Source: Naegleria gruberi (lineage: Eukaryota). Taken from it: 64,000 nucleotides of DNA. The translations under genes were made by a program, and so were the position numbers. Under the pieces are notes generated by a model. It had not been told where the DNA came from, ran no database searches, and saw only the letters and a program-made list of their open reading frames with translations. Below are positions 21,855 through 59,262 of this stretch, one piece after another. Position 1 is the stretch's first letter, and each line of letters opens with the position of its first letter. The stretch lies in assembly GCA_000004985.1 (NCBI GenBank), contig GG738889.1; one strand, given 5' to 3'.

Positions 21855-23231
21855 TTATTGAATTATGGAAATATCAGAGAGGAGGTTTTTTCTTGAGCAA
21901 TTCAACAAACTCTTGAAAAATCTTTGAACACCCACATTAGCTCTATCCAGATAAAGTACCAAACTATTTGGACCAGTTTTGTAGGTAACTGCTTGTGAGC
22001 TGAATTCCTTTTTCACATCAACAAAAAGGTCATTAACTAAACCTGATGAATTGTATGCATTTCCCTTCAATACTAAAATATCTCCGTCCAATAGGAATGC
22101 CAAATAATCTCTATTCAGTTCCATTGAAATAATTTCTACAGGGAATGGATTGACGATTTGCCTCACATTCAATGATTTGTTTGATGAAGGCAAACCGTAC
22201 TTGTCCTCAATTTCGCTCACTGGAATATTGTTCAGTTTAGGATAATAATCATTACTGGTAGCATATAAATGATAGAATCCATAGATGGATTTTAAGAGTA
22301 AACTATCTGATCCAGCAAATCCAATTGTTGATGCAAAAGCTGGATTGATCCTTCCCATTAATTCCTTTTCTTCAATGCATTGTCCATTAAATGTGCTTCC
22401 TCCTATTATTATTATCATTTGAATAAATATAATATGGTATCAGCAGTATTGACAAGATCATTTCAAATAATTACACTTACCTGTATAAAGAATACCATCC
22501 TGAGTTATTGCACAAACGTGGAAATTACCAGCACACATTTTCATTATTGGAGCATGTGTTCTGACAATGAAATCTGGCCAATTATGTTCGTTACCTCCTT
22601 GAAGCCAATTTTGACCAGTCATGTGTATGTCAGTATTGTTGACAACACAAGTTGAGAAGGAAAATGAACAAGCAATATGAGTGATCTGTCCTCCTGAAGC
22701 CAGTTCAACACCAGGATTGAAGACAGGAATTGGAAAATATGAAAATCTTTCATCTCCACATTCTCTCCGCACTACACTGTTATCAGCCAATTGTCTATAT
22801 TGATTAGTTCCCATTCCATACAATACAGTTTGCTTTTCTTCCACATGTTTAACAAGAAAAATTACTTGTTCAGTGTATGACGATATATCCAACACCTTCT
22901 TTTTAATACCATCAAACTCATCATAGGTTTTCACTAAATATCCAGCATCGGTATTGTTTTGTAGTATTGTGCACTTGTCGTGTCTACTACTATTGGAACC
23001 ATCTTTTTCAATGACAAATACTCTGCCGCTCTCCTCTACAATTCTGATCGTGTTTGGATTGCAATCAACGTGTCTGATCCGAGTAATCTGAGGTATATGA
23101 GCAGTGATCAAATTCAAACGACTAGCAGAGTTGCCAAGAAAATGTGGACCATCAATTGGCTTCTCCTCCTTCGGCGTACTGGCAGAGTAGAAGGCAAATT
23201 TGAGCATTTTTTTTAAAATTTCCAAGTTCAC
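21855..23231 (-). CDS. RCC1-repeat (regulator of chromosome condensation-like) protein, 2 exons (intron 22403..22480)
   Basis: RCC1-type repeats appear in both pieces: LYGMGTNQYRQLA, HIACSFSFSTCVV…IHMTGQNWLQGGNEH, CAGNFHVCAITQDGILYTG and, after the intron, GSTFNGQCIEE. A GTAAGT…AATAG 78-nt intron joins ILYTG|GSTFNGQC in phase 1 and removes the stop of the upstream ORF. The total is about 432 aa. Confidence 0.55.
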
Positions 23232-38618: not shown

Positions 38619-40069
38619 TTACAACTTGTTCAAGATCTTATCAGCAGCCTTTTGCAAACGGTTAGTCTTGAGGTCTCTCTTTTCCAGCAATTCTCTCTTT
38701 CCTTGCATCTTCATCTTGGCTCTATCTCTACAACAGCAGCAGAAGATACAGAAACCAAGGATACAAGCAAAGACGGCACAAACAACAATGACAAGAATGG
38801 AAACACCAACAGCAATATAAATACCATTTTCAGCAATAACAGTCAAAAGATAGAATGGATCAACACTACACTTTCCAGAATCAGATTCAGCATATGGATT
38901 GTAAACGTAGGCCTTTGGATTTGTACAACCAGTAGCACATTCTTCACCAGTACAGGCGATTCTAGATCTCAAAGTGGCAACATCAGAAGCTGCAGGTGGT
39001 TCGAAAGAAACAGTCTTAAGACTTGGCTAATTTAAAATTAATTGAAAAGTTCAAATCAAAACAACTTACCAAATAGAATGGAACTGGAGTACCAAGTTGA
39101 ACGCTCTTGGCAATGTTGGCCTTCAAAGGATCCTTTGGAATAACATATTGTTCAGTATTTTGGACAACTGGAGCAACAAAGTCCAAAACCTTACTTCTAA
39201 TTTCAGACATGGCAGTTTCAATTGAACGAGCCCCAGATGGACACCAAGCTGGATAAGCAGTAGTGTCAGTACATGTTGAACTTCCTCCAAAGTTATCGAA
39301 TTTGAAACCATCTTCAGAGTAGAATCTACTACAAGTGTACTTGTAACTAGAAGCATCACTGCTACAATCGCAAGTTGAAAGGAGGGTTTGACAGTGGTCA
39401 ATATTCATAAAGTGTTCAGAACAGGATCCGAGCTTAGTGAAAAGATCTGGCAACTTTGGAACAATACATGTAAGCAAACTATAATTTTCAATTGAGAGAG
39501 TCTTTGTTTGACATGATTTTCCGTAACTATCAATAACACACAAGCCAGAGTTTGCACAACAAAAGCCACTACATGACTTTCCAATTTCAGCAAGATAGGA
39601 CAAGTAATTATTAGCAACACAACTAATATAACCATTCTTTGGGAAAGCATTTGCACAATAAGAATACTTCAACTTTTCAATACAGGATGGACAACTTGTA
39701 ACACCCTTTCCAAGCAAATAGGCTTGCATACTGTTGAAGGAATCTATACAGATCATTATATTCATCACATCATCATATTGAAAACCTACCTTCAAGGAAC
39801 TTATCCATATATTCAGCATAGGTAGAGTATGTTCCGTTTCCTGTAACGATTGGTTTTGAGAAGAAAGCCTTATCGGTATATCTTCCGTTCATCATTGAAC
39901 AGAAAGTAAGATTTGAAATTATTGTTTCTCCACAATGCAATTGATCACCCATACTAGCAACCAAATTTTTACATTGACCCTTAACGAGTGGTATATTATT
40001 AATCAAGGCTAATAAAACAATAACCGCAACAGCGAAAATTTTCAATGCCCTCATTGGAATTTGATTCAT
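38619..40069 (-). CDS. Cys-rich type I transmembrane glycoprotein (3 exons: 40069..39790, 39743..39070, 39026..38619)
   Basis: Exon 1 encodes a signal peptide (MNQIPMRALKIFAVAVIVLLALINNIPLVKGQC). The ectodomain has more than 30 Cys in CxxC/CC arrangements and several N-x-S/T sites. A TM segment IYIAVGVSILVIVVCAVFACILGFCIF is followed by CCCC and a basic tail. The introns are 46 nt (GTAGGT…TATAG, phase 1) and 43 nt (GTAAGT…ATTAG, phase 0), and both joins keep the frame. The total is about 453 aa. Confidence 0.55.
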
Positions 40070-40367: not shown

Positions 40368-41423
40368 TTACTTCTTCTTATTCAAATAGAATAAGGCACT
40401 TCCTACAGCTGGATCCACTCTTGGTTTTTCAATAATTTGAATCAAGTCTCCAAAACTCTCCTTCAATTTCTCAATTAATCCCTCAGCAACAATTGAATTT
40501 TCATGAGTGAGAATACTTCCACAGAATACCAATGAAAACTTTTCCGATCCATTTGTGAAATTCAATTTAGTTGCAGTGGTTTTCACTAAATGAAACAAAT
40601 CATTGACCATTTGTTGAATAATCTTCTTTGAGACAGCATCATCAGATTCACTAATGGCCTTGAAAGCAAGTGGTGCAAATTGAGCAATTCTACTCCATTC
40701 TGTATTCTTGTAAATATATGGAATTAAATTACTCAAATTCTTTCCATCATATGCATCTCCTAAATGAATTTTCAATTCATCCTTAACCAATTGAGTAAGA
40801 ACAGTTTGTTCTCCATATTCATCCTCACAATCAACTGCACTTAACAAGACTTGAGAGCCAAGCCAGAATCCACTTCCTCTATCACCCAACAATGGTCCCC
40901 ATCCTCCAGTTCTCTTATAATTTTGACCATCATCATTGGTTCCGAGACAAATCGATCCAGTACCTGCAATCAAACATATCACATGATGCAAACTACCCAA
41001 TGTTCCACTACAGATAGCAGCTACAGCATCATTGAATATGTGAATTTCAGGATATTTGTTGTTATTTTCTTCGCAATTTGATGATGATGATGATAAAGGA
41101 ATGTTAAATAATTCACAAATCCATGATCTCACTTCAGCAATATCATCTGGACGATCTACACCACTCAATCCCAAACAGACAGCAGAAACTCTTTCCAATT
41201 GTTGTTCTTGTGCTTCAGATGAACAACACTCTGCCAATACTTGTCTAATACCATCAAGAATGACTTGTTTAGCTTTATCAGCTCCAACACTATTCTTATT
41301 GGAAGATGGACAGTGAGCTGTTGAGAGGATGGCTTGTGTGGAATTGTCGAGAGCTACGATGGTGGTGCCTGTTGATCCGCCATCAATGCCAATGGTGATG
41401 TTTCTTGTTGTTGATGATGACAT
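40368..41423 (-). CDS. N-acetylglucosamine kinase-like ATPase (BadF/BadG/BcrA/BcrD family, ASKHA superfamily)
   Basis: 351 aa. The N-terminal phosphate-1 motif is ITIGIDGGSTGTTIVALD. The central motif is CLIAGTGSICLGTNDDGQNYKRTGGWGPLLGDRGSGFWLG (GTGS…GD.GSG). This is the NAGK/BadF-type fold. Confidence 0.75.
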   Translation of the reverse strand: MSSSTTRNITIGIDGGSTGTTIVALDNSTQAILSTAHCPSSNKNSVGADKAKQVILDGIRQVLAECCSSEAQEQQLERVSAVCLGLSGVDRPDDIAEVRSWICELFNIPLSSSSSNCEENNNKYPEIHIFNDAVAAICSGTLGSLHHVICLIAGTGSICLGTNDDGQNYKRTGGWGPLLGDRGSGFWLGSQVLLSAVDCEDEYGEQTVLTQLVKDELKIHLGDAYDGKNLSNLIPYIYKNTEWSRIAQFAPLAFKAISESDDAVSKKIIQQMVNDLFHLVKTTATKLNFTNGSEKFSLVFCGSILTHENSIVAEGLIEKLKESFGDLIQIIEKPRVDPAVGSALFYLNKKK

Positions 41424-41605: not shown

Positions 41606-44600
41606 TTATTGAAGAAGCAAATCCCATTCTTCAACCTTTTTCAATATCACATCAATAGAAGGTCGTTTACCTGGCTCATGACTCCACATCTGGCGAATCA
41701 CTTTTGTCATTTCAAAAATCAATTCATGGTGAATTACTTGTTCCTTATCAAGAAATTCCTCACACCATTTCTTACACTCTTCACAAGTTGAGAATGGAAT
41801 GATTGGCCTCAAATTCTCCTCACAAACACTCTTATGGAAGTGATACGAACTACTAAATGGTGTTGGTTTGGTGATTTTCAACTTTTTGAGAACGTTTGGA
41901 TCTGAGCTATGGTAAGGTTCAATAATTTCGAATAATAATTGCCACATAATGATGGCCAAACTGTAGATATCAATAGAACGGGCGTCCTCTCTCTCAATTT
42001 CACCAGAGAAAAGCTCCGGAGCCATAAATGAGCTGGTTCCAATCTGACTGGTAATTGCTGAAATTGTGTGAGAACAAAAAGCTCGTCCTAATCCAAAATC
42101 ACACAGTTTGGCAGTTCCACTTTTATCGAGAAGGATATTGGCTGGTTTCAAATCTCTATTCCACAAATGAAAGATTATTTTAGGTGAAATTTAGTATTAA
42201 TACATACCTGTGGACAATGAAATTCGGTTCCAAATGATGCAAATAATAAATTCCACTCACAATGTTCCTCAATATTGCCAATTTTTCATTGAGAGTGCAT
42301 TTGGAATAGCCACGTTGCATGGATGCAATCATTGCCTCTAAACTCTTATCCATGCACTCCATGGCAATGAATCTCTTTGTTGGTGTCGATGAAACACCAT
42401 AGAAATTGATAATATTTGGATGCCTTAATTTGCTTAATAAAATTGCTTCCACTTTGAAATCATTTTCTGAAATACTCAAATTATTCAAATCGAATACCTT
42501 GACTGCAATTGTCATTCCATTGAATTTGGTTGCAAAAACAGAACCCATTCCACCTTCTCCGAGTCTCTTGATTGGTTTGTCCATATTGAGTTGTTCTATT
42601 GGAATGATGAATTTATCTGCCTCTTCCACATAGTAAGAACTAGATCCCATACTTGATTCATAATGGTCCAACAATCTTTCATCTAAAACCAGATCAGTTT
42701 CAGTCAGTTTCTTATTCTTTCGTTTTACAGAAATATACGAAATAAAGATAATGAAACAAATGGCAGTAACGATGAGTAAAACAATGGCAGATGAGAGTCC
42801 CAATCCGAGGGCAATCGTGTTGATACTACAATCCTTTCCAAAGTAGGAAGATTGACAAAGACACTCATCCTGTTTTACACATGTTCCATGTCCTGAGCAA
42901 GCACTTGATCCTGATTGACCAAAACAAATAGCAACCCCACAATCTTTTCCTGTATATCCACTATTACAAACACAATTATCTGGTGCTGTACAAGATCCAT
43001 TTCCATGTGAGCAAACTTCCACAGATGTCTTTGGATAATTAAAGCAAATTGGTAATTGACAGTTATTGCCAAAAAAACCTTGATTGCAAGAACATTGATT
43101 AATATCGAAACAATTTCCGTTTCCACTACACACTGATTCTGAAATATTTGCTGGTATTCCAAAACATATTGGAATACACATTGTCAAATCTCTACTCAAA
43201 AGGTAACCCTCTCTACAAAATGGTGTCAGTTGTCTCACGACATTTTGAGTAGAATCTGATAAGTAAATCGATCCAGAACTAGGGGAAATTGTAAATCCTT
43301 GTGGAGATGCCAAATAATCACTCGTTGCCAAAATTTCATTCAAATCCAATTCTTTCACAGTTGAATTTCCAGCAATTGTGTAAACTAGATTAATTCCATT
43401 TCGTCTACTTATTTTCCTAATCATTGCATTCAGTGAATCAATGAAAATAATATCCACAAAATCAGGAGGTACCAATTTCACTATAGTTGGATAATTAAGC
43501 TCTGCCTGTTCAGCAATTCCATCTATGTATCCAGGATTTCCACTGCCTGCAATGGTGGAAATTGATCCATTCACATGAATCATTCTAATTCTATTATTAT
43601 TCGAATCGGCGAATATAATTTCATTATCCAAATTGATGGCAATTCCGGTTGGCTGAGCCAAAAGTGCAGACTTAGCATCATTTGAATCTCCATTAAAACC
43701 ATATCCCTTTCCTGCAATTGTTGAAATTATTCCATTTCTATCAATCTTTCTAATCTTGTTATTTCCAAAATCGGTCACATAAATTTCTCCATTGAGAGGA
43801 GAAACAGAAACCGCATAAGGTTTAATTGAAGCATAGGATGCCAATCCCTTATCACCTATTCCACCAACTATAGTCTTGACGATACCAGTTTTAAAATTGT
43901 AAAGTTTCACCAAATTACTGTAAGTATCAGCAATTGCCAGATATTGAGTTCCACCACTTGGTAACTGGAGATATCTGACGCTTGAAGGATAGCTGAGCTT
44001 GGATTTGATTCCCAATCCCTCCTCAAATTCTCCACCTCCAATCAATGTATCAGCAATTCCAGTAGAAATCGAGACAGTCCTAATCCTATTATTATTAGTA
44101 TCAGCTATAAACATGGTATTCTGTGAAATGGTTATACTTTTAGGGAGATAGAGTTCCATATTTCTAACAAATCCACCGTCACCTCCATTACCAATTTCAC
44201 CTGTGCCTGCATAGGTATCTGTAACACCATTAATAGTGGCATATCGAATTCTGTGATTACCCGTATCGGCAATGCAAATCATTTGGCTATCTACCACGAC
44301 AACATCCTCAGGAAAGCTCAATTGAGTTTCAGTTGATAAAATATTATCACCATTGAATCCTTCATGTCCAGAACCAGCAACTGTCTTTACCATTTGAGAT
44401 GTACTACTGCCCAAGTAAATTGATCTAATTCTATGATTTCTAGAGTCGGCAACCAGTAAAACTTTATCAGCAGAGTCAATATGAATTCCTTTTGGCTATA
44501 GAGTTTGTAAATATTGCAAATTATCAAAAATTTCAAACTTACACTATTAAATGTTGTGTTCAACAGTGTGTTATCTCCATTAAAACCCTTCACTGTTGGT

Positions 44601-46402
44601 ATTCCAGCAAATAGTTCCAATTTTCTAGTTCTAATATTCACTCGCCACAAACAATGTTTTTCACTATCTGAAAAATAAACATAATTACTTATATAGGCAA
44701 TGCCAACTGGAGTGCCAATACCACTGTCCTTTGAAACCAGTGTTTGGGATATTCCAGTACTAACATCTACCATTAAAACTCTATAATTCTTTGTGTCTGA
44801 AACAAATAGAGTGACATTCTTTTCGAGATTGTAATTCACTACTGCAACACAAACTCCTTGTGGACTGTTGAGAACTTCTGATAAACCATCAACCATTTGT
44901 GTATTGGTTGAATTAAAGAAGAATGATCCAGTCATTGGTTGAGATTCTAGAGTATTCAAATTGAATTTCACAAGAAAATTCGAAGCCCAATAGTTAATAT
45001 TATTAACTACGAGTAAGTTTGATTGGTGATCAGTGGTAATTGATATTGGATCAGTAAATATAGGAATCTTACTGTGTAATCCACGTTTCAAATCTAATAG
45101 AGAAGTGCTAATCCTTTCAGATATTCCACTCATAAATGAATATTTCAGTAAACGAGCTGATTGAGAATCAGAAATCAGCAATTCCTCTTCTCCATTCTTA
45201 TTCTTAATAATGATCAAATCTTTTGGTGATCTGAGACCAGTCATTGTTCCTCTGGTTTTTTCAGCAAAGGGAACCCTACTCGAGTAAATTGTTGAAATTA
45301 ATCCTGACCTTCTATCCACCATTCTCATTTCATCTGAAACATCCACAAAAACAATTGCTCCTCCAATGGAAATTGTGACTGATATTGCATTGGTTATTTG
45401 AGCTTCAATGGCTAGCCCTCCATCGCCCAATGATCCTGTGTTTGTTCCCTTAATGACATGTTCGAAAACTCCCATTTCGAGTGAATTCACACTTTCATCC
45501 TGATTGTAAACAGTTGTAAATTTCTTAGATGTCACTGCTTGAGGTCCAGAAAAATAAAAAGTTTCTTCCACAATCGTATTAAGTCCATTTTGATATGTTT
45601 TCAAAGAGGTAACATCAAAAGCAAAAGACATACTATTCCTACAGTCAAAAACAGTACGTGTTCCATTTCTGAATATTCTTTCACCTTTTGATTGAAGTAA
45701 AACTTGCCATTCATCTCTTTCATTAATGATAATTCCTTGAATTGACTCTGAAAAAGTCCTGTACAGAGATACATAACCATTCCTTAACAAGAATACATTG
45801 TAATCTTGTGTGAAATAAACATCAATTTCATCCATATTCGAATACTTGTTAATTGGAACGGAGATTGTTTGGGGATAAATAGAAATTGATGTGGCATTCA
45901 CTTTTTCTGTGGAATCCAAAAATTTACATTGACCATCTCCAGCCAAAGTTGTGATCATTCCATCTGCAGTGTTTAGTCTCTTCAAAAAACAATCCGAATA
46001 GAAATAAATTAAATCAATTGCTCTAGTTGACGACGATTGAAAGGAAACAACCTGAAACTTGGGCCAAACATTGGACCGAACAAAACTGATATCACCTGTT
46101 TCAATGTTCAATTTTGCAAGTTGATATCCTTCACTACCTGTGTTTGATGTGAAATAAATAATGTTTGGATCAACTTTTGAGAACATTGCCCTCGCAGCAA
46201 CGCCAGACAGCTGGTTCTTCTTCTCCAAATATCCAATAACAGGTTTTGATTTATATTGCACAAGTCTCTTCCGAACTAAACTTTCCGTTGTTGGTATTTC
46301 TTGTTGACAAAAAACTGGTGATGTGAAAAACAATGTCACGATTAAAAAACACATCAAAACAGATGCCTCTTTACTGAAAGATAATGATGACATTTTTTTC
46401 AC
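41606..46402 (-). CDS. NHL-repeat receptor protein kinase (signal peptide, about 14 NHL beta-propeller repeats, Cys-rich EGF-like region, TM, Ser/Thr kinase); 3 exons 46402..44543, 44495..42208, 42155..41606
   Basis: The signal peptide is MKKMSSLSF…CFLIVTLFFTSPVFCQQ. There are many NHL-type blades (GNHRIRYATINGV, ADTNNNRIRTV, ADSNNNRIRMI, SDTKNYRVLMVD…). The EGF-like Cys clusters include CSGNGNCFDINQCSCNQGFFGNNCQ. The TM is AIVLLIVTAICFIIFISYISV. The kinase has GEGGMGSVF, AVKVF, HRDLKPANILLD (split IVHR|DLK by a 52-nt GTATGT…AATAG intron), DFGLG and APE. A second 47-nt intron (GTAAGT…CTATAG) joins TTFNS|PKGIHIDSADKV. Together these merge three ORF-track entries into one protein of about 1565 aa. 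The ORF-track M at 44414 is a TTG inside exon 2. Confidence 0.7.
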
Positions 46403-46413
46403 TCTCTTACAAG

Positions 46414-49400
46414 TTATTTATTATTGGAAGGATTGTTAGGGGTATTCAAGTCTGAAAGTTTTCCAATGAAAGATGAACGAAGTCTACCAGCAGTGTTTGT
46501 CAATTTTCCTGCAATGGTAGCACCTCTTTCTCTGAGTGATGGTGTAGATAATCCATTGTTTGGTTGACCTGTGGTTGGTCGTTGGTTTGGTGGTAAAACT
46601 GGAAGTGTTGGGAGATTCTTTTGTGGGATGGTTGGCAATGGTTTTCTATCATGGTCATCAGTAGGAGAACTAGCTCCATTATTATTGGCTAGGAGTTTGT
46701 CTTTACCAGAAAAGCTCAACACTGTTTCAAGTTTGATTTCACCTGTTTGAGCAGGAGAAACTTCATCTTGAGGTTCGGTAAGTTTGTCTTGCAATAGTTT
46801 GGTTTGCAACTCCAAATTTTGCATTTGAAGGTTTTGGTTTTGTTGTTTTAACTCCGCCAACTGCACATACAAATCAGAAATGATATTCTTCAATTCTGCA
46901 TTGACTAATTGTTGGTCATTAATTTCACCTCTGACGATTTGAGCTGATTCACCCTTCTTTTCCATTTTGAGAGCTCTCTCAGTTTGTTGAATTTGTCTCT
47001 TTACAAGTACATTATACTCCTTCTCAACCTTTCCCTTGTCGATTTGAGTCTTTTGTAAATCTTGTTGTAATTGAATGATATGTTCACGAAGAGTTCTATG
47101 AAGAGCATTTGTTTCCTCTTGAGCCTTCTTGAACTTTTTCTTTTCTTCCTTTAGTTTAAAGTCCAAATCGGTAATCTTTCTATCTCTGAGATCACATTCA
47201 GATTGTAATTGTTTGGTCAAGTGCTTTTGTTGGTTCAGCAATTTACGTGTTTCACTCTCCTGAGTAAGGTAAGTGGAGATACTTTGCTCACGGTTTTCCT
47301 GCTCCTTTCTAAAAGATTGGATATATTCATGGAGTTGACTGAATTCAACTCTGAGAGAAAATTCTTCTTCAGCAGCAACACGAAGAGAATTCTTGATAAT
47401 TTCGAATTGCTTTTGCATGCCTCTCAACTCACGATTTTGATGTTCAATACTTTCATCTGTTAAAACTCTATTAACAATTTCTTCATTCTTCTTATCATCA
47501 ACTTCTTGCTTCCTTGTTTCAAAGAAATCTCTGCCAATATCTGTTTGAACACTCATGTCAATACGCATATTTTTGATACGGAGTTCTTCAATTACTCTAG
47601 CACTTAATCTAATCCAGTCTGCAAGTTGGTTAGGAGTTTCTGGATAGATGAAAAGTCTCTTTTCATTACCATTAATGATGGCCAAAACTTCCTTTGGCAT
47701 TGGTTGATTTTCTTCAATTGGTACTTGTGTCTTGATATACTCTGTTGTATCAGACAAAGCCATATGATAGAACAAGTACTTATCAATGGCATTTGTAGAA
47801 TCCTTTACAAAGCTTTGAGGTGGAAGTTTTTGAGTGAGACACAAAATTTCACAAGTATCTAACAAGACACAGTGAATTCTCTTGAAAGTATTTGAACTGT
47901 GAGTGAGTACTTTACAAGGTCCTTCAATAAGAATATTCTTCTTATTGTCATCAACTTTTGGTGTGTTGGTAACAGCTTGGGGTTGTTTAGAAGGAGTCTT
48001 GATAGATGATTGTTGGTTTTGCATATCGGCCAATACTTCTGTAAGGTGAATCTTACTCTTGATGGCTTCATTCAAAGCTTCTGTCTTATCATTGAGTTCA
48101 GAGTGCATATTATTGAAAAGTCTTGTCAAACTATAATGTTCAATAAGAGTCTTTGTGAAGGATCTTTGTGATTCTGCTATTAAATCTCCCAAATTTTGGA
48201 ATTTTTTGATAATCAAGAGAGTCTTCTTATCAGCAAACATGGCAAAATAACCTTGTAACATATCTGCCCATTGTTTGATATCCTTGAATTGGCTTCTCAA
48301 GAGCTTGGAAATTACATAAACCATCTCTGGTTTGATTTCAATACGCAAAGAGTTCTCTGAATGTCCAAGGGAAGGATCCATAGCTTGGAACCAAATACCT
48401 CTCTTACTCAATGGCTTGGTATAATCATTGATAAGTCCAATCATCCAATCAACTGGTGCCGAGGTGAGTGGAACAACTTCCAAATTGTCAAATGTTGAAG
48501 TCTTTGGAGCACTGTTAATATCATCCAATGACTTGAAAGGAACACCAGTCTTAATCAAACAGTGAACATTTGTACCAGTACCATAGAGCTTGAGTTCATA
48601 TTCATGAGATCTATTACTAAAGCTTTGAACAGGTTGTTTTGATATTCTGTCCAAATGTTCAATACGGTAGAGACTATCAAACATTGGTAGGGTAGCACCC
48701 TCCATGATACTTCTTGTTGGCAAGTGAGTGACCCCCAATGTCTTGATTTCCACACCAACAGCATTTGGTCCTTGACCTTTTCCGATGACATAAACTTCAA
48801 CCTCCTCAAGAGAAATGTCGAACAACATTGGATAGAAAGTTTGGTGAGTGGTGGCCAAGAATTCTTGAACTGTCTTCTTGTCCTCTTCCTCCTCCGTAAG
48901 TTCTTGTTCCTCTGATTGTTCTTTAACAACTTGTGGTTTCTTCTTTGTATCTTTGATCTTTTTAGCAACAGTCTTGATGACTGGAATTAATTCAGTCTTG
49001 ATGGTTGGAATGATTTCTTCCTTAATGACTGGAATAATTTCAGCAGTACTTTCTTTGGTTTTTCTCTCAATTTTGGCAGGTTCTATGGTACGAATTGTTG
49101 GTGTGGAAATGCCTGTTGCTATGGAAATAGGTTCTGGCTTTTTCTCTGACGAATCAACTTCCACAGAAACAAATGAGTCAATTTCTTTCATTGTCAATGT
49201 TAGAGTTGGTGTTTCCTTTGGAGTATCGAAGGCCGATTCTGAAGTAATAATCTCAAATGAGTCATCACCTTCTTCGGTATTCATTTCTTCATCAGTCAAT
49301 GGTTCTTCATCCTCTTCATCCTTTTCTGAAGGTGAAGTAGCAGCCGATTTCGACTCTGCTTCCTGTCCAGCTACTTGTGGTAAAGAAGATTCTTGTTGTT

Positions 49401-52400
49401 GCTGTGTTTGTTCTTCTTGGTTTTCCTCTAAAACTTCAACTGAGTCTTTTGGTGAAAGAGACTCTTCAACCTTTGGTGAAGTAATTCCTGTTTCGCTCTC
49501 CAAAAAGTCAGTAGGCAATTGTGAAACCAATTCCTCTTCTTCCTCTTGAGCCTTCTTCTTTTCAGGCAAGTACTTTTCACGAATCTTACTGTATGTTCTC
49601 TTCACTGTTCTATTCATAATTTCCATAGGTGATACATCAAATGCATTTTCTCTGGAATTTAAGAAATGAAGAACATGGTATGCAGTGTCAGTATTTAAAC
49701 CAATGTGAAGTCCGTTTGCTTTCAAAATAAGTCTTGGATTTCTCAAAAAATTTGAATTTCTGTGAGGTTCCATCTGTGGTTGGTCACTAGGAGTTGCTGG
49801 TGACTTTTTAGTATCAGCATTCAAATCCATTGGATGTTCATATCTGAAAACTATCATGTGACCAGGAGATTTGGTTTTATCATACATTGGGAATACATAT
49901 GGAGACTTTTGTGAAATGCTCGAATGCATATGGCTTACCATGATCGAAGAAGGATTTTCACCATTTTGTGGAGAAGTTATTTCAAAGTGAGCAATCTTAC
50001 TCTTCACCGTTAAAAAGTTGCTAACCTTTGTAGTATTGTTGGTTTCTACTAAAACCTCAGCTCCACTCAAAACCATAGTCAATAATTTTGCATCCAAAGA
50101 AGGGTCATACTGTGAGGAGAAGAATGCCTCCATTGAGGTGGCAGATGAAGCAGTAATTGAAACTTCAAGCTTGGCAATCTTGGACATGAACATGAGAGGG
50201 ATGAGACGAATATCTTCCTTTGGAGCTTCAATAATAGGTTGAGGTTGATTTGGTTTTTTGAAAAGATCAATATTATGGTCATGGAATGATTTGGTACTTT
50301 GAATTAGGAAGGACTTGATCATTGGAGGATCATCAACAAATGTACGTATGAATTCCAACAATAAAATCACTTGAGATTGGTTCATGTGGAAATTCAAATT
50401 TTCAATAAAGGTAAGAAGTACAATTTTTGGTAACTTGGCATGGTAATCTGACAAGGTTTCATCATTGATACCCAAATCAAAAGTCAAGGAAAGAGGTTCC
50501 ATAATTCTCTGTGGTGGTGAGTGAATGGAAGGCATGATTTGAATCAAAAAGTCGGATATTTTGACCTTGAACTTGTTTGGCAAAACTTCCCATAGAGAAG
50601 AATGTAACGAACTGTAATCTGAACCACTTGATGGGAATGTATCAATTGATTTTGGAGCAAAGAGTGAATCCTTATCCTTCTTTCCCCATTCCGATTGTTT
50701 TCTAATTCTAGGATCACTAGTGATGATCAATTCTCTATTATCAATACAAACAATTTCATTCACATCGGTCATTAGATCTGGTGAGTAATTTGAAGGAATA
50801 AAAATTTTTGGACTTCTAATTTCCACAAGGAAGGAGAAGCTCTTCTCATCTCCTCCACTTTCTTCATCTGAATTGTAATCAGAATTTGATGAATTGATAG
50901 AGTTACTGGATGGTGAAACTTTCAACTTTTCTGCACTTTTAGTTGTGGATGCCATAGAGCTGAGTGAACCAGTTGGATTAAGAGGTTTACCAAGTTGTAT
51001 GATACTATCCACAGGAGGTTTGACGGACATGTCTGGTAAACATTCTAGAGAAAATTCCAATAATCTAATAAGTCTACGAACATCGAGCATGATATTGATA
51101 GGATTCACTCTACATTCTAAAATGAATTCCATTCCTTCACCCTTAACAAACTTTAACCTGACCATTTCTTTCCCTTCCTCAAAGAATTTTCTTTTAATGA
51201 CAGAGTTTGGTCGGTATACTCTATCAGTTTTAGTATAGTCAGGATAGTATCTGTGTGTTGATAAAAATTCAGGCCAGACGTCCAAATTGACTGTATAACT
51301 GTGTGATCCTGTAACTGTAGGACTCACTATTTTTGTAGTTTCTGCATGATGACTCACAAAATCATCCTCTTCAAACTCTTCTTTAAATATTTGAGGTTGA
51401 ATAATATAATTTTCATCTTTCAATTCATTATCTGTAGTATTGTGATTTCCAATGAGTTCCAAATCCAAGAAAGAAGCTGCTGTTTCTGATAAATTTCCTT
51501 GTCCCTTGAAACTTGTAGTAATTTCCTTAAATTGGATGAAAGGAATTCCGAGTTGAATATTCTTATCCTCAGGTGTATCCTCTGGCATGACCAAGCCTAA
51601 CTGGAATCCCAACATTTCAAAATAGTACCCAAGTACACGTCTATTTTCTCTTCCAACAACTTGTTTAGGTTGATTATTCTCATCACGACTATACAAAAAT
51701 GTCATTGAAAACTCGTTTAAATTTACAACTATACACTTTCTGACAGTGTCTTGTGGAGTTGAGGATTTCTTAATCATATCATCTGTAATAATTTCCATAT
51801 CATTTAAATCTCCATCCATTTCTGCCAATTCCTCTTCAAGTTTGGCTTCATCATCCGAATCCTCCTCATCACCATTATTATCAACAAAGAATTTAGAAAT
51901 TGCTTTAGATTGTCTAGCTGTTGTTGTTGTGTTGGTCATTGATGTTTTGCTAGATTTTGATGAAAGACTAGATTGACTGCCTGATCTTTTTGTTCTCTTT
52001 ACATATGTTGTTAGTGGATCTTTTGGTTGAATTAAATCCTGTCTTGCTGATGCTGATTTAAAAGCTAACAAGACTCTGATAAGTGCTTTAATATCGTCCT
52101 GTCTTAGTGTTATTGCTATTTTAGGAAGAATAATTTCAGCATTGATACTCAGTAGTGATGATTGTTTACCCACTGTTACTGCTCGCTTTTTCATTGTTAT
52201 AAAGATATTACAAGTTATATCATTTAAAAGCTTGATAGGGTCTGAGTTTGGTAAGAAACTATTTGCTGATGGTGTACTCTTTATACCTGTGCTAGAAAAG
52301 ACTGAACTAGGTATGAGAGAGATGGATATTGATTCAATAGTACCCATACGATGCACCCAAACAAAAGGATTTTTATCAACCTTTGGGATGGCTTGTTTTA

Positions 52401-52977
52401 AATCTGGTACAGGTTTAAATCTATAATCTGTTGTTTGAAGGGTAAATCCCTTGACTAGAATTTGCAATACATGAGGTGTATATGGTCCAATTTGTGTTGA
52501 AGGTATTGGCCCGAGAGTTTTAATATTAATTTCAACTCTATTTACCACAATCTTGAGACCATCAATAATTCTATCCACAAATCCATACTTGCTGGTACCT
52601 GTTTTTGATGAAGAAGAACCTTCATCACCCTGAGATCCTCTGTTCTTTTCCAGAAAATCCTTCAGTGGTGTCTTTTTAACAAAAGGTTTTGTTGGTTCCT
52701 CCAAGTTGATAACCAACTTATCGAGAGTGATGATGAGAGGATCATTTGTTAAACGTGTAAGACCTGGTAAACGTATGGAGAGTTGATTGACGTGAGCATC
52801 CATTACTTGAAGAAAATCAATAGGTAAAACCTCTTGAATAACTTGTTCATTGACGAATAAATTATTCAGAGACCCTGATCCCTTCATAAACGATAGAGAC
52901 AAGGCATCCTTTCCCCAGTTTTTAATAAAGACGGAAAGATATTTTCCCAACACACTAGAAATCAATCTATCAGCCAT
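46414..52977 (-). CDS. Chorein-N bridge-like lipid-transfer protein, BLTP3/SHIP164 (UHRF1BP1)-like, with acidic region, PH-like domain and long C-terminal coiled coil
   Basis: The 2187-aa single exon starts at a real ATG. The N-terminus MADRLISSVLGKYLSVFIKNWGKDALSLSFMKGSGSLNNLFVNEQVIQEVLPIDFLQVMDAHVNQLSIRLP…LDKLVINLEEP aligns closely with the SHIP164/UHRF1BP1 chorein-N domain (…LSTLKGEGELKNLELDEEVLQNML…ASIRIPW…LDKV…EEP). Near residue 1700 there is a PH-like fold (ILIEGPCKVL…KRIHCVLLDTCEILCL…KRLFIYPETPNQLADWIRLSARV). The last ~450 aa are heptad-rich and end in a Pro-rich tail. Confidence 0.6.
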   Translation of the reverse strand: MADRLISSVLGKYLSVFIKNWGKDALSLSFMKGSGSLNNLFVNEQVIQEVLPIDFLQVMDAHVNQLSIRLPGLTRLTNDPLIITLDKLVINLEEPTKPFVKKTPLKDFLEKNRGSQGDEGSSSSKTGTSKYGFVDRIIDGLKIVVNRVEINIKTLGPIPSTQIGPYTPHVLQILVKGFTLQTTDYRFKPVPDLKQAIPKVDKNPFVWVHRMGTIESISISLIPSSVFSSTGIKSTPSANSFLPNSDPIKLLNDITCNIFITMKKRAVTVGKQSSLLSINAEIILPKIAITLRQDDIKALIRVLLAFKSASARQDLIQPKDPLTTYVKRTKRSGSQSSLSSKSSKTSMTNTTTTARQSKAISKFFVDNNGDEEDSDDEAKLEEELAEMDGDLNDMEIITDDMIKKSSTPQDTVRKCIVVNLNEFSMTFLYSRDENNQPKQVVGRENRRVLGYYFEMLGFQLGLVMPEDTPEDKNIQLGIPFIQFKEITTSFKGQGNLSETAASFLDLELIGNHNTTDNELKDENYIIQPQIFKEEFEEDDFVSHHAETTKIVSPTVTGSHSYTVNLDVWPEFLSTHRYYPDYTKTDRVYRPNSVIKRKFFEEGKEMVRLKFVKGEGMEFILECRVNPINIMLDVRRLIRLLEFSLECLPDMSVKPPVDSIIQLGKPLNPTGSLSSMASTTKSAEKLKVSPSSNSINSSNSDYNSDEESGGDEKSFSFLVEIRSPKIFIPSNYSPDLMTDVNEIVCIDNRELIITSDPRIRKQSEWGKKDKDSLFAPKSIDTFPSSGSDYSSLHSSLWEVLPNKFKVKISDFLIQIMPSIHSPPQRIMEPLSLTFDLGINDETLSDYHAKLPKIVLLTFIENLNFHMNQSQVILLLEFIRTFVDDPPMIKSFLIQSTKSFHDHNIDLFKKPNQPQPIIEAPKEDIRLIPLMFMSKIAKLEVSITASSATSMEAFFSSQYDPSLDAKLLTMVLSGAEVLVETNNTTKVSNFLTVKSKIAHFEITSPQNGENPSSIMVSHMHSSISQKSPYVFPMYDKTKSPGHMIVFRYEHPMDLNADTKKSPATPSDQPQMEPHRNSNFLRNPRLILKANGLHIGLNTDTAYHVLHFLNSRENAFDVSPMEIMNRTVKRTYSKIREKYLPEKKKAQEEEEELVSQLPTDFLESETGITSPKVEESLSPKDSVEVLEENQEEQTQQQQESSLPQVAGQEAESKSAATSPSEKDEEDEEPLTDEEMNTEEGDDSFEIITSESAFDTPKETPTLTLTMKEIDSFVSVEVDSSEKKPEPISIATGISTPTIRTIEPAKIERKTKESTAEIIPVIKEEIIPTIKTELIPVIKTVAKKIKDTKKKPQVVKEQSEEQELTEEEEDKKTVQEFLATTHQTFYPMLFDISLEEVEVYVIGKGQGPNAVGVEIKTLGVTHLPTRSIMEGATLPMFDSLYRIEHLDRISKQPVQSFSNRSHEYELKLYGTGTNVHCLIKTGVPFKSLDDINSAPKTSTFDNLEVVPLTSAPVDWMIGLINDYTKPLSKRGIWFQAMDPSLGHSENSLRIEIKPEMVYVISKLLRSQFKDIKQWADMLQGYFAMFADKKTLLIIKKFQNLGDLIAESQRSFTKTLIEHYSLTRLFNNMHSELNDKTEALNEAIKSKIHLTEVLADMQNQQSSIKTPSKQPQAVTNTPKVDDNKKNILIEGPCKVLTHSSNTFKRIHCVLLDTCEILCLTQKLPPQSFVKDSTNAIDKYLFYHMALSDTTEYIKTQVPIEENQPMPKEVLAIINGNEKRLFIYPETPNQLADWIRLSARVIEELRIKNMRIDMSVQTDIGRDFFETRKQEVDDKKNEEIVNRVLTDESIEHQNRELRGMQKQFEIIKNSLRVAAEEEFSLRVEFSQLHEYIQSFRKEQENREQSISTYLTQESETRKLLNQQKHLTKQLQSECDLRDRKITDLDFKLKEEKKKFKKAQEETNALHRTLREHIIQLQQDLQKTQIDKGKVEKEYNVLVKRQIQQTERALKMEKKGESAQIVRGEINDQQLVNAELKNIISDLYVQLAELKQQNQNLQMQNLELQTKLLQDKLTEPQDEVSPAQTGEIKLETVLSFSGKDKLLANNNGASSPTDDHDRKPLPTIPQKNLPTLPVLPPNQRPTTGQPNNGLSTPSLRERGATIAGKLTNTAGRLRSSFIGKLSDLNTPNNPSNNK

Positions 52978-54370: not shown

Positions 54371-55654
54371 TTATTTATATCTCAAGTTTAGTAGCATGTT
54401 TAGATGTCCTAAAAATACAGTGAATTCTGATTCACTTAGAGTTTGAGCTTTGGCCTTTCCACAGCTCTCTACATATTTACATTTTTCAAACGTGTCAATA
54501 TATTCCATCCAAATGTCATACACTTCAGGATTTTTAGTCATGTTGTGGTATTTAGATAAGACAATATCACAAATATATTGTCTTACTGTTACATTTGCTG
54601 GAAAATATAATTCTGGATCCTTTGATGCCACAGATCGTTCAATGAGCAGTGGAGAATACAGTACAAACTCACAAAATGAAAAGTAATTCCTCTGAATAAT
54701 CCTATACAAATCATCCATGTGTAAATTTACAATATTTTGCTCTGCCATAACAACAGTTCCAGTAGAAGAGTTTAAATTTCCCTTTGAAAGAGATGAAAAA
54801 TATTTTCCTCCATTGGCCATATTAAGTTGAGATGTTGATTGGGAGAGAATTTTAGTGGATGATGATTGAACAATACCAGTGGATGGTGGAATTGGTTGAG
54901 TGGATGGTGGTGGAGTAGTGATTGAGATTCCAACATTTGAAGGATTTCTAAATTCAAGTTCAATATTTTCCAAAGATGCTCCAGCAATGGTTGAAGAAGT
55001 TGGCTTCCTTTCCAATAATATACCCTTTCTCAATTCAGTTAAATCTGTAGATTGATGAGCAGCAACTCTTGAACTATTCAAAATTGAAATATTCGAAAGA
55101 GAACTTCCCATTGAATCTCTCACATTATTGTAGAATACATATCCTTCACATTGTGGATGATTGGTTGAACTGCTCACTACATATAAATGAGCAAAGTGAG
55201 GAAGAGCTTTCAATTGGAAAACAGGTGGTTTCCAATTTTGAAAAATTTCATTAGCTTGAATAGAATAGGCCTTTACCGAATTAGAAACTGTCCAATGTGA
55301 TGCTTTTGATTTGAAATATTCCTTATCAAATTCTCGGGGTTGTTTTTCTCTCTTTTGAAATTGATAAAATTTATATTTTCCTATTTAATTTTCGAATATA
55401 TTTAATGATAATATTATTCGAAACCTACTTTTTGAATTTCTCAAGATGGCACACGTAATTAAAATCAACAAGAATAATACAATAAACACCGAACCCATGA
55501 TGAGGATAATAGATGTATAATCGACTTGAGTAGTTGAAATGGCTTGGTTGATGGCCATTACAACTGGTTGTTGTTGGTCGATTAAATTATTCTCGTTATC
55601 ATTCAAATAGTCCGAAATGTATTCGAATGTGTGATGAAGAATATCCGAATCCAT
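54371..55654 (-). CDS. Hypothetical type II (signal-anchor) membrane protein, 2 exons (55654..55429 and 55380..54371; 48-nt intron)
   Basis: Exon 1 encodes MDSDILHH… followed by a single TM (IILIMGSVFIVLFLLILITCAIL). A GTAGGT…AAATAG intron of 48 nt (phase 1) joins it in frame to the 54371..55213 ORF (…AILRNSK|RKYKFYQFQKRE…). That ORF otherwise starts at a TTG. The total is about 411 aa. The luminal part is Ser/Thr/Pro-rich with a conserved-looking C-terminal block. Confidence 0.45.
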
Positions 55655-57294: not shown

Positions 57295-59262
57295 ATGGGA
57301 CAATCACTCCAGAGTCAATTAGTGAGCAGTTGCCAATCGGATCAAGTCGAATTGTGCAAAAGTATTCTCAATCAAGATTTAAATCTATTCAATTATGAAG
57401 ATGATAAGGTAAGTATTAGTGCCTGCCTTCGGAATTGGTTATTAATAATTAATACATTAAATAGTCGATGGTTTGTATTGAAACTCTAAATTAACGTTTA
57501 AACTTTGGATGAATATATTGAATAATATTGAATAATTGGAATATGAAGAATATATTATTGATGTGTGCCAAGTATGAATCGGTTGGAATTATCAAAATGT
57601 TATTTTCCGATTTTAAAACACAAGTGATGGCAATTATCGATAAGACTGATGTAGGTTTAACCTCTGTTGAAATTACGATTATATCATCATTATTGATTTT
57701 AATAGTGGCCTTCGAATTATGTAGGTTTATAAAATTGTTGAGGATTATTGGAAATATTGTTGTGATGAATGATGGAATTATTATATGAAATATTGGAAAA
57801 ATTAGACGGCTTTGCATTGGGCTTGTTATAATCAAAATTTGGAGATTGTGAAAATTCTGGTGGAGAATGGAGCCAACACAACACTTGAAAATGTAGGTTA
57901 TTGTTAAAGGTTATTTCAAAAACGAAACTTGAATAGGCGGATGGTCATAAAGCAATTGATTTGTGTGAGAAAAATTCATCAGTTTATTCATATTTAGCAA
58001 GTGATAGAGCTTCATTGTTTGATTGGATGAAAAAGACTCTTCAACCAAACAAGTACAATCATTCGAATTATAAACCATCGGGAAATGAGGACTATGTCAC
58101 AACAGATACTGATGATGGGTTAGTATTTATTTATTCGAATGTATTATTCACACATGTGAAATCTTAGTTTTGTGGAAATTGAAAAGGTGGAGGTTATTGA
58201 AACGGAGAAAACTCAACGAGAGGAATCAAAGCCACTCACAAGCAAATTACAAATTTTGGAAAATATTACAAAGAGCTTTGCCAAAACTTTTAAAATTGAA
58301 TCGACACTTTCACATGACATTACATCGAGTGTTAGATTTTCCAAAGTTAATGACATGGAATTAATGGATCCTATTGCCTCGGGAAGTGAAGGAAAGGTAT
58401 TCTATGGAAGGTGGAAAAAGCAATCAGTTGCCATCAAGGTCATTGAAGTGCCCTACCTCACTGAGGGGCTTGTGGAAAATTTAAATTTAATTCTCAACAT
58501 TTCACACAAGTATTGTGTCTCTCACCATTCATTTTCCTATGATGAGGAAAATTGTAAATTGTACATAATTATGGAACTTATGAATACCAACCTGTTCAAG
58601 TATATTTTCAGACAAAGGAAAGAATTGACTCTAAAAGAAAAGGTTCATGCATTACATAGTATTTCTATTGGAATGTTCTATTTGCACGATATGAATCCTC
58701 CTGGTAGGTTAGGAATTTCATTAGATTGTTAACAATATTATTTTACATAATATTGAAAATAGTTTTAAATTTGGATTTGAAATTGGAAAATATCTTGATT
58801 AATATTGGAAATGATGGAAGACCTTCAGATATCAAAATTTGCGACTTTGGATTGTCAATGTTTAAGAGCAAGGCAGAATTCATTAAATTGACAGATCCAG
58901 TGGGTACTTTGAGAGCCATTGCCCCAGAAATTCTTCATAATTTCACATGTTCTGAAAAATCAGATGTCTACTCATTTGGAATTTTAATGTATGAATTATT
59001 ATTCGGAAGAGTTGCTTATTATGACTATTTGGAAAATGCAAATGAAAATGATGGAGATGACTTGTTGTTGAATATTGTCAATAATCACAAACGACCAACT
59101 ATTCCATCTGACTATACAATGCCAACTCTCAATCAAGAACGAACAAGTGTGGAAACCTTAATAGATATGATGCAGAAATGTTGGGTGGAAGATCCAAAAC
59201 AACGACCAACCTTTGACCAAATTACTACAGAATTGGAAAAGATTGTTTTGCCGTGCAAATAA
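57295..59262 (+). CDS. Ankyrin-repeat protein kinase (TKL-like) with N-terminal MGxxxS myristoylation motif; 6 exons
   Basis: The exons are 57295..57408 (MGQSLQSQLVSS…NYEDDK|GTAAGT), ~57549..57650 (ANK-like NILLMCAKYESVGIIKMLF…; acceptor uncertain), 57806..57892 (TALHWACYNQNLEIVKILVENGANTTLEN), 57937..58118, 58168..58703 (GSEGKVFYG, AIKVI, …YLHDMNPP) and 58763..59262 (VLNLDLKLENILI, DFGLS, APE, stop). The introns are 43-140 nt with GTAAGT, GTAGGT or GTTAGT donors. All joins remove in-frame stops of the ORF-track pieces and preserve frame. The catalytic loop reads NLDLK instead of HRDLK. Confidence 0.62.

What the first reader, a model, noticed from the sequence alone, without database searches (positions are those of the whole stretch)
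41606..46402. Three ORF-track pieces form one 1565-aa NHL-propeller receptor Ser/Thr kinase
A signal peptide, many NHL blades, EGF-like Cys knots, a single TM and a complete kinase (HRDLKPANILLD, DFG, APE) assemble through two short introns: 47 nt at 44496..44542 and 52 nt at 42156..42207. Both have near-consensus donors and both join in frame. The IVHR|DLK catalytic loop is split by the second intron. NHL-repeat ectodomains coupled directly to a cytoplasmic kinase form an uncommon receptor type, best known from protist kinomes. The ligand is unknown. The apparent M at 44414 in the ORF track is a TTG and is not a start.
Basis: partly seen in the sequence, partly recalled or inferred. Interest (0 to 1): 0.55.

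Follow-up and report, generated by a model that had tools for sequence, protein, structure and literature searches.

The report
Naegleria NHL-propeller/EGF receptor Ser/Thr kinase gene
The three reading-frame pieces are one intact, two-intron gene of the amoeba Naegleria gruberi. It encodes a single-pass membrane receptor with stacked NHL beta-propellers and EGF-like modules outside and a Raf/MLK-like Ser/Thr kinase inside, and it is one of several similar, unstudied genes in that genome.

Summary
On the minus strand, ATG 46393 to TAA 41606 reads as one gene with exons 46393-44543, 44495-42208 and 42155-41606. The introns are 47 nt (44542-44496, GTAAGT..TATAG) and 52 nt (42207-42156, GTATGT..AATAG).

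The window is Naegleria gruberi NEG-M. Both splice junctions are confirmed by homology. The annotated N. gruberi paralogue EFC45236.1 (1555 aa) aligns colinearly over aa 321-1547 with no gap at either junction. Four other relatives read HRDLKP without interruption.

The architecture, from N- to C-terminus:
- signal peptide
- about 18-19 NHL-type blades, enough for roughly three propellers
- three teneurin-type EGF modules
- one TM helix
- a complete RD kinase closest to CTR1, ZAK and TAK1 (TKL group)

At least four further N. gruberi genes share NHL and/or EGF modules with a related kinase, so this is a lineage-specific family and not a one-off. The closest studied analogue, bacterial PknD, has the opposite membrane topology. 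There is no transcript, ligand or functional evidence. My verdict is a correct gene model for a new member of a known kind (protist TKL receptor kinases), of modest interest.

The parts
44543..46393 (-). Exon 1 (aa 1-617). Starts at ATG 46393 and covers the signal peptide plus the N-terminal 10-11 propeller blades.
46307..46393 (-). Signal peptide, aa 1-29 (MSSLSFSKEASVLMCFLIVTLFFTSPVFC|QQ). The cleavage site is inferred.
   Evidence: Hydropathy peak at aa 9-29. Paralogues also start with hydrophobic leaders.
44496..44542 (-). Intron 1: 47 nt, phase 0, GTAAGT...TATAG, GC 21%.
   Evidence: The junction FNS|PKG aligns without a gap to LNSPTY in the paralogue EFC45236.1 and to LNSPTG in the near-identical contig L001.
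42208..44495 (-). Exon 2 (aa 618-1379 plus 2 nt of the Arg1380 codon). It carries 8 NHL blades, 3 EGF modules, the TM helix, the juxtamembrane segment, and the kinase N-lobe up to His1379, with Arg1380 of HRD completed in exon 3.
43203..45418 (-). The sequence-recognisable NHL blades, aa 326-1048: 13 blades with cores near aa 347, 405, ~460, 529, 572, 630, 690, 745, 803, 855, 910, 966 and 1027. The region spans intron 1.
42828..43178 (-). Three six-Cys teneurin-type EGF-like modules (aa 1057-1173).
   Evidence: Pfam EGF_2 x3, EGF_TEN and EGF_Teneurin. Cys spacing.
42726..42818 (-). The single transmembrane helix (aa 1177-1207), followed by KRKNKK on the cytoplasmic side.
42156..42207 (-). Intron 2: 52 nt, phase 2, inside the Arg codon of HRD. 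GTATGT...AATAG, GC 23%.
   Evidence: HRDLKP is contiguous in five relatives.
41606..42155 (-). Exon 3 (the last nt of codon 1380 through aa 1562, plus TAA 41608-41606). It carries the rest of the catalytic loop, DFG, APE, the C-lobe and the family-specific insert.
41639..42572 (-). Protein kinase domain, aa 1259-1552: GEGGMG, K1283, HRD 1379-1381, DFG 1399-1401, APE 1425-1427. The region spans intron 2.

Best explanation
This is one protein-coding gene of Naegleria gruberi with three exons and two short GT-AG introns. It encodes a 1562-aa type-I, single-pass receptor Ser/Thr kinase.

A cleavable signal peptide sends about 1150 residues outside the cell. That part is roughly three tandem NHL-type beta-propellers (about 18-19 blades, the N-terminal 5-6 highly diverged) carried on a stalk of three teneurin-type EGF-like modules. 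One TM helix and a juxtamembrane segment of about 50 aa lead to a catalytically complete RD kinase of the TKL group, closest to CTR1/Raf-like and MLK/TAK1 kinases.

The inferred mechanism is that an unknown extracellular ligand or surface binds the propellers and clusters the receptor. The kinase domains then trans-phosphorylate the Ser/Thr-rich activation loop (SHTISAITSQIGTSS) and signal to cytoplasmic targets.

What is shown: the gene structure, the domain order, the membrane-topology signals and the intact catalytic motifs. What is inferred: expression, ligand binding, activation by clustering and the downstream pathway.
For: Gene model. The spliced CDS is open for 1562 codons. The introns are short, AT-rich (21-23% GC against about 35% for the surrounding DNA) and have GTA[AT]GT donors and ATAG acceptors. 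Six other ORF-joining candidate introns in the same window look alike. GTAAGT and GTATGT are otherwise depleted in the window, at 34 observed against about 85 expected.

Junctions. The paralogue EFC45236.1 aligns over aa 321-1547 (33% identity, E=0) with no gap at residues 617/618 or 1380/1381. IVHRDLKPANIL is uninterrupted in L001, and HRDLKP in P0219, P0220, P0221 and P0223.

Organism. The flanking ORFs are exact matches to N. gruberi EFC40975.1 and EFC40977.1.

Domains. From Pfam.

Topology. Only two hydrophobic segments exist, and basic residues follow the TM helix.

Kinase group. The single sequence best matches CTR1 at 4.7e-32, then IRAK4 and TAK1. The family profile matches CTR1 at 9e-42, ZAK at 4e-37, TNNI3K, TAK1 and SOBIR1.

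Family. EFC45236.1 has the same full architecture. EFC41150.1 (signal peptide, many NHL repeats, EGF, TM, kinase), EFC35529.1 and EFC46875.1 share parts of it.
Against: No transcript or protein evidence was available, so splicing and expression rest on sequence logic and paralogue homology only.

Neither the exact 1562-aa product nor any near-identical protein is in the 15-billion-protein collection. I therefore could not compare my model with the public annotation.

The first ~300 ectodomain residues have no detectable sequence homologues and are modelled with low confidence. The EGF stalk is also poorly modelled, and the partition of the blades into propellers is not resolved.

The ATG lies only 20 nt downstream of the upstream gene's stop codon, which leaves no obvious promoter space.

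The TKL assignment rests on best hits, not on a phylogeny.
Confidence: 0.85

Rival explanations
1. The pieces are two or three separate genes: a secreted NHL protein from the first ORF, and a separate membrane kinase starting near 44414 or at a downstream ATG.
For: The ORF track shows three separate ORFs. Prokaryote-style gene callers split the paralogous loci in the same way.
Against: The 'start' at 44414 is a TTG. The second ORF would begin mid-blade and would lack a signal peptide. The third would begin inside the catalytic loop. The annotated paralogue EFC45236.1 is one 1555-aa protein that aligns without a gap across both junctions.
Confidence: 0.03
2. The locus is a silent or decaying paralogue (pseudogene) of the family. 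It looks intact but is not expressed or functional.
For: It belongs to a multi-copy family. There are only 20 nt of upstream intergenic DNA. No expression data exist, and the product is absent from the protein collections.
Against: There are 1562 codons without a stop or frameshift, against a chance expectation of about 7% stops per codon. All catalytic motifs, every Cys of the EGF modules and the family-specific C-lobe insert are conserved. The splice sites are canonical.
Confidence: 0.07
3. Regulated intron retention gives alternative products. Keeping intron 1 would yield a secreted 668-aa propeller-only protein, a soluble decoy. Keeping intron 2 would yield a membrane receptor with a truncated, dead kinase. 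This could coexist with the main model.
For: Both retained introns run into early in-frame stops that fall at domain boundaries. Intron 2 sits exactly in the catalytic loop.
Against: This is purely hypothetical. Intron positions are not conserved among the paralogues, which argues against a conserved regulatory role. No transcript data exist.
Confidence: 0.1

Closest known systems
Naegleria gruberi paralogue EFC45236.1 / XP_002677980.1 / D2VDH5 (NAEGRDRAFT_66846, 1555 aa, 'predicted protein'). Also EFC35529.1, EFC46875.1, and more distantly EFC41150.1.
   Same: Same domain order: signal peptide, NHL blades, teneurin-type EGF modules, TM, kinase. The alignment is colinear at 33% identity over about 1230 residues, and 46-56% in the kinase region across the close relatives. 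The same C-lobe insert is present (CE.N.RP.IPF...EC..WC.EF).
   Different: The N-terminal ~300 aa are not alignable. There are three EGF modules here against four in EFC45236.1. Intron positions differ. None of these proteins has been studied.
Mycobacterium tuberculosis PknD and other bacterial NHL-sensor Hanks kinases (e.g. Frankia WP_322755685.1).
   Different: The topology is opposite: in bacteria the kinase is N-terminal and the propeller C-terminal. PknD has one propeller and no EGF stalk. The kinase here is a eukaryotic TKL type. This is an analogue, not a family member.
Teneurins and the teneurin-like protein 9ifo.
   Same: They combine teneurin-type EGF modules with an NHL propeller. 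Pfam TEN_NHL, EGF_TEN and EGF_Teneurin all hit. The best Foldseek hit is 9ifo, at 5e-22 and 28% identity.
   Different: Teneurins are type-II proteins with a YD/RHS shell, FN-plug, TTR and toxin-like domains, and they have no kinase. None of those domains is found here.
Protist and plant TKL-group receptor kinases: Dictyostelium GDT/DRK (PMC1420674), Entamoeba TMKs (PMC2880585), plant CRINKLY4 (propeller plus Cys-rich domain).
   Same: The layout is signal peptide, lineage-specific ectodomain, one TM helix and a C-terminal TKL-like Ser/Thr kinase. CRINKLY4 also pairs a propeller with a Cys-rich module.
   Different: The ectodomains are unrelated: GDT/DRK domains, CXXC repeats, or a WD40-type propeller. 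No NHL propeller is reported in those families.

Membership tests
Eukaryotic (Hanks-type) protein kinase superfamily | Pfam PF00069 above the gathering score, plus the Gly-rich loop, VAIK Lys, HRD, DFG and APE motifs. | tested here: met
   Pkinase scores 148.9 bits against a cut-off of 31.7. GEGGMG, K1283, HRD 1379-1381, DFG 1399-1401 and APE 1425-1427 are all present.
TKL group (Raf/CTR1, MLK, TAK1, IRAK-like) | The kinase domain is more similar to TKL members than to other groups. | tested here: met
   Single sequence: CTR1 at 4.7e-32, IRAK4 and TAK1 at ~1e-23, and the best non-TKL kinases at ~1e-21. Family profile: the top 16 distinct sequences are all TKL (CTR1, ZAK, TNNI3K, TAK1, SOBIR1).
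TKL group (Raf/CTR1, MLK, TAK1, IRAK-like) | Placement inside the TKL clade in a kinome-wide phylogeny or with kinome HMMs. | not tested
   No kinome HMM library or reference kinome was available in the tools.
NHL-repeat six-bladed beta-propeller | Repeated NHL motif and a closed propeller fold. | tested here: met
Naegleria NHL-EGF-TM-kinase paralogue family (EFC45236.1-like) | Colinear full-length similarity with the same domain order and the family-specific C-lobe insert. | tested here: met
   BLASTP E=0 over aa 321-1547. Same Pfam set. The insert is conserved in the alignment.
Bacterial PknD-type receptor kinase | N-terminal cytoplasmic kinase, one TM helix, C-terminal extracellular NHL propeller. 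| tested here: not met
   The order here is reversed: the signal peptide and propellers are N-terminal and the kinase is C-terminal. Only the sensor fold is shared.
Teneurin | Type-II orientation, with a YD/RHS shell, FN-plug and toxin-like C-terminus in addition to the EGF and NHL modules. | tested here: not met
   No RHS/YD or Tox-GHH Pfam hits, and an N-terminal signal peptide with a C-terminal kinase.
Spliceosomal GT-AG introns of the local short class | GT...AG ends, 40-80 nt, AT-rich, restoring a homology-supported frame. | tested here: met
Spliceosomal GT-AG introns of the local short class | Removal observed in mRNA. | not testable with these tools
   No transcript data were reachable. 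The exact spliced product is absent from the protein collection.

The most novel reading that the evidence does not exclude
Naegleria has independently built an expanded family of 'teneurin-like' receptor kinases: tandem NHL propellers on EGF stalks wired directly to a Raf/MLK-like kinase. The amoeba would use them to recognise bacterial prey surfaces, or other Naegleria cells, and to trigger feeding, adhesion or differentiation. This would be a eukaryotic, topology-inverted counterpart of bacterial PknD sensing. It could also offer a route into the unknown ligands of NHL-propeller receptors.
Probability: 0.2. Interest if true: 0.5.

Novelty: new member of a known kind. Interest (0 to 1): 0.27.

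Why it matters
The result fixes the structure of a large receptor gene that ORF-based callers split into pieces. The same splitting was seen for its paralogues: a 303-aa kinase-only model and a model truncated within the kinase domain. It also shows that N. gruberi carries a small family of receptor Ser/Thr kinases whose ectodomain combination, NHL propellers plus teneurin-type EGF modules, I could not find described in the kinome literature I could search.

That is useful for annotating heterolobosean kinomes, including the pathogen N. fowleri, and for comparative work on how receptor kinases were assembled repeatedly from lineage-specific ectodomains. It does not overturn any expectation. 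Protists are already known to have lineage-specific TKL receptor kinases, and nothing functional is known here.

Tried and rejected
The top 150 hits were dominated by giant NHL+EGF repeat proteins, and only two carried a kinase.
- The look-up of encoding contigs had no record for the N. gruberi proteins P0061 and P0220. The genomic context of the kinase-only paralogue could therefore not be inspected.
It gave no new family members.
- A blade HMM built from the 12 clear blades did not detect the N-terminal blades. Exon 1 alone found only weak bacterial NHL hits that covered about half of it.
- The afdb50 fold library was unavailable.
- Literature searches for Naegleria NHL or receptor kinases found nothing relevant. 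The 2023 cross-kingdom TMK survey does not mention Naegleria or NHL. The N. gruberi genome paper is not held.
- No tandem DNA repeats of note and no Rfam families lie in the locus.
- Alternative in-frame splice choices exist, for example acceptors at 44385, 44307 and 42120 and a donor at 42260. I rejected them because they would delete conserved blade residues or the catalytic loop, which the paralogues keep.
Full report
**1. Source of the window**

The two intron-less ORFs that flank the finding are exact matches to Naegleria gruberi proteins. ORF 40368-41423(-) is EFC40975.1 / XP_002673719.1, an N-acetylglucosamine-kinase-like protein. ORF 46414-52977(-) is EFC40977.1 / XP_002673721.1. The window is therefore N. 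gruberi NEG-M nuclear DNA at about 34% GC.

The GenBank, RefSeq, UniProt and EukProt numbers of the two neighbours each skip exactly one value. This implies that a single annotated gene lies between them (EFC40976.1 / D2VQM8, my inference). I could not retrieve it. The exact 1562-aa product is not in the 15-billion-protein collection. Neither the word-indexed search nor the exhaustive HMMER search returned anything above 43% identity.

**2. Check of the observation**

One search lists the three minus-strand ORFs. Reading the DNA gives the following:
- The first ATG is at 46393, in the context aaaaaaATG.
- There is a GTAAGT donor at 44542 and a TATAG acceptor ending at 44496.
- There is a GTATGT donor at 42207 and an AATAG acceptor ending at 42156.
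- The stop is TAA at 41608-41606.

Joining 46393-44543, 44495-42208 and 42155-41606 gives 4689 nt and 1562 codons with no internal stop. Intron 1 is phase 0. Intron 2 is phase 2 and splits the Arg codon of HRD. The 'M' at 44414 is a TTG.

Retaining intron 1 leads to a stop 51 codons later. Retaining intron 2 leads to a stop about 9 codons later. With about 7.1% stop probability per codon on this strand, open frames of 617 and 762 codons have chance probabilities of about 2e-20 and 4e-25. No plus-strand ORF of 80 aa or more overlaps the gene. The locus has no significant tandem repeats and no Rfam hits.

**3. Are the introns real?**

Three lines of evidence support them.

(a) Local class. A mechanical scan for GT[AG]NGT donors that join two long frames found six other short candidate introns in the window. 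They are 43-78 nt, have GTA[AGT]GT donors and mostly ATAG acceptors, and are 19-28% GC. Both introns here fit that class at 21% and 23% GC. GTAAGT and GTATGT are depleted overall, at 34 observed against about 85 expected, so their presence at frame breaks is informative.

(b) Homology across the junctions. The annotated N. gruberi paralogue EFC45236.1 (1555 aa) aligns to the spliced product from aa 321 to 1547 at 33% identity with E=0. There is no gap at 617/618 (FNS|PKGIHID against LNSPTYLQVN) or at 1380/1381 (IVHR|DLKPANIL against IVHRDLKPANIL). In the near-identical contig L001 both stretches are contiguous DNA. HRDLKP is also uninterrupted in P0219, P0220, P0221 and P0223.

(c) Alternatives. 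The other in-frame splice choices would remove conserved blade residues or the catalytic loop.

Transcript evidence is missing.

**4. Anatomy of the protein**

Hydropathy shows only two hydrophobic segments. One is an N-terminal leader at aa 9-29. The other is the TM helix at aa 1177-1207, followed by KRKNKK, which matches the positive-inside rule. All nine N-glycosylation sequons found lie in the ectodomain, which is the only part I scanned.

Pfam detects NHL and teneurin-NHL repeats, three EGF_2/teneurin-type EGF modules and a complete kinase domain at aa 1259-1552. Thirteen blades are recognisable by sequence between aa 326 and 1048, with a period of about 55 aa. The first ~300 residues have no sequence homologues.

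The two AF2 models are of moderate confidence:
- Exon 1 part: mean pLDDT 60.5, all-beta in four-strand sets, about 10-11 blades.
- Exon 2 ectodomain: mean pLDDT 63.8, eight blades, most at pLDDT 75-97, with a poorly modelled EGF stalk.

The total is therefore about 18-19 blades, enough for three propellers and not one or two. How they partition is unresolved, because a spliced sequence could not be submitted for modelling.

**5. The kinase**

All catalytic motifs are intact: GEGGMG, K1283, HRD 1379-1381, DFG 1399-1401 and APE 1425-1427. It is an RD kinase with HRDLKPAN, which is the Ser/Thr type. This reading comes from general kinase knowledge.

The closest solved kinases to the single sequence are CTR1 (4.7e-32), IRAK4 and TAK1. 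With a profile of the family they are CTR1 (9e-42), ZAK/MLT, TNNI3K, TAK1 and SOBIR1, all of the TKL group. Named database hits include 'TKL-CTR1-DRK-2 family' proteins. A conserved Cys-containing insert in the C-lobe (…CE.N.RP.IPF…EC..WC.EF…) is specific to the Naegleria relatives.

**6. A family, not a singleton**

The closest kinase-region relatives are these:
- EFC46875.1: a 303-aa kinase-only model that starts at MDKPIKRLG, 56% identity.
- EFC45236.1: 1555 aa with the full architecture.
- EFC35529.1: 546 aa, EGF plus kinase, on a 5.1-kb scaffold.
- Metagenomic fragments P0219/P0364 and P0223.

Contigs L001, L082 and L083 all carry NHL/EGF coding sequence directly upstream of the kinase, broken by short introns at positions different from those here.

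A more distant N. gruberi protein, EFC41150.1 (2807 aa), has a signal peptide, many NHL repeats, EGF modules, a TM helix and a kinase whose model ends before the APE motif. N. gruberi and N. lovaniensis also encode kinase-less EGF-rich proteins related to this ectodomain, such as EFC49472.1 (teneurin-type EGF modules only) and KAG2389232.1.

**7. Most likely mechanism**

The gene encodes a type-I receptor Ser/Thr kinase. Its propeller stack on an EGF stalk would bind an extracellular ligand or surface. Clustering would then drive trans-autophosphorylation of the Ser/Thr-rich activation loop and cytoplasmic signalling.

The architecture, the topology signals and the catalytic competence (at motif level) are shown. 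Everything downstream is inferred by analogy with other single-pass receptor kinases. The ligand is unknown. Bacterial prey or cell-cell recognition is speculation.

**8. Comparison with known systems**

The nearest studied analogue for an NHL propeller acting as a kinase sensor is M. tuberculosis PknD (PMC1847690; the structure matches). Its topology is inverted and its kinase is bacterial, so this gene is not a member of that family.

The EGF plus NHL pairing recalls teneurins, but the teneurin hallmarks are absent: there is no type-II orientation and no YD shell.

As a class it fits the lineage-specific TKL receptor kinases of protists, for example Dictyostelium GDT/DRK (PMC1420674). I found no paper that describes NHL-type receptor kinases in Naegleria or any other protist.

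**9. Verdict**

The gene lies in a published genome, and at least one full-length paralogue is already in public annotation as a 'predicted protein'. It is a new member of a known kind, with modest interest (0.27). The main value is in annotation and comparative work.

Noticed in passing
window 46393-46416 (-): Only 20 nt separate the TAA of the upstream same-strand gene from the receptor kinase's ATG. That gene (46414-52977, EFC40977.1, 2187 aa) has an N-terminal BLTP3A/B bridge-like lipid-transfer domain. The kinase's promoter and 5'UTR must overlap the upstream gene's 3' end, or the two genes are co-transcribed.
   Followed up: partly
window 58172-59262 (+): A second, small kinase gene with a 59-nt intron (58704-58762, GTAGGT..AATAG) a few codons upstream of its catalytic loop. 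That loop reads LNLDLKLENIL, so HRD is replaced by NLD. It may be an atypical or pseudo-kinase.
   Followed up: partly
window 59523-63890 (-): A 1455-aa ORF that combines G8, a CEMIP-type beta-helix, teneurin-type EGF modules, VWD and an RGM_C/C8-like segment. It is another large extracellular protein using the same EGF type as the receptor.
   Followed up: no
whole window, both strands: The donor-like hexamers GTAAGT and GTATGT are depleted: 34 observed against about 85 expected from base composition. Six further short (43-78 nt), AT-rich candidate introns join long ORFs at 12332-12374, 22403-22480, 39027-39069, 39744-39789, 55381-55428 and 58704-58762.
   Followed up: partly
P0220 (EFC46875.1) and P0081 (EFC41150.1), N. 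gruberi proteins outside the window: Public gene models of paralogues look truncated at introns. EFC46875.1 starts exactly at MDKPIKRLG, where the related locus L082 has an intron. The EFC41150.1 kinase runs into non-kinase sequence after ...GTPIFM, just before the APE motif.
   Followed up: partly
L001 and L082 (ENA ERZ929261 metagenome contigs): These 'metagenome' contigs encode proteins in the same 90%-identity clusters as N. gruberi EFC45236.1 and EFC35529.1. The sample therefore contains a Naegleria very close to N. gruberi.
   Followed up: no
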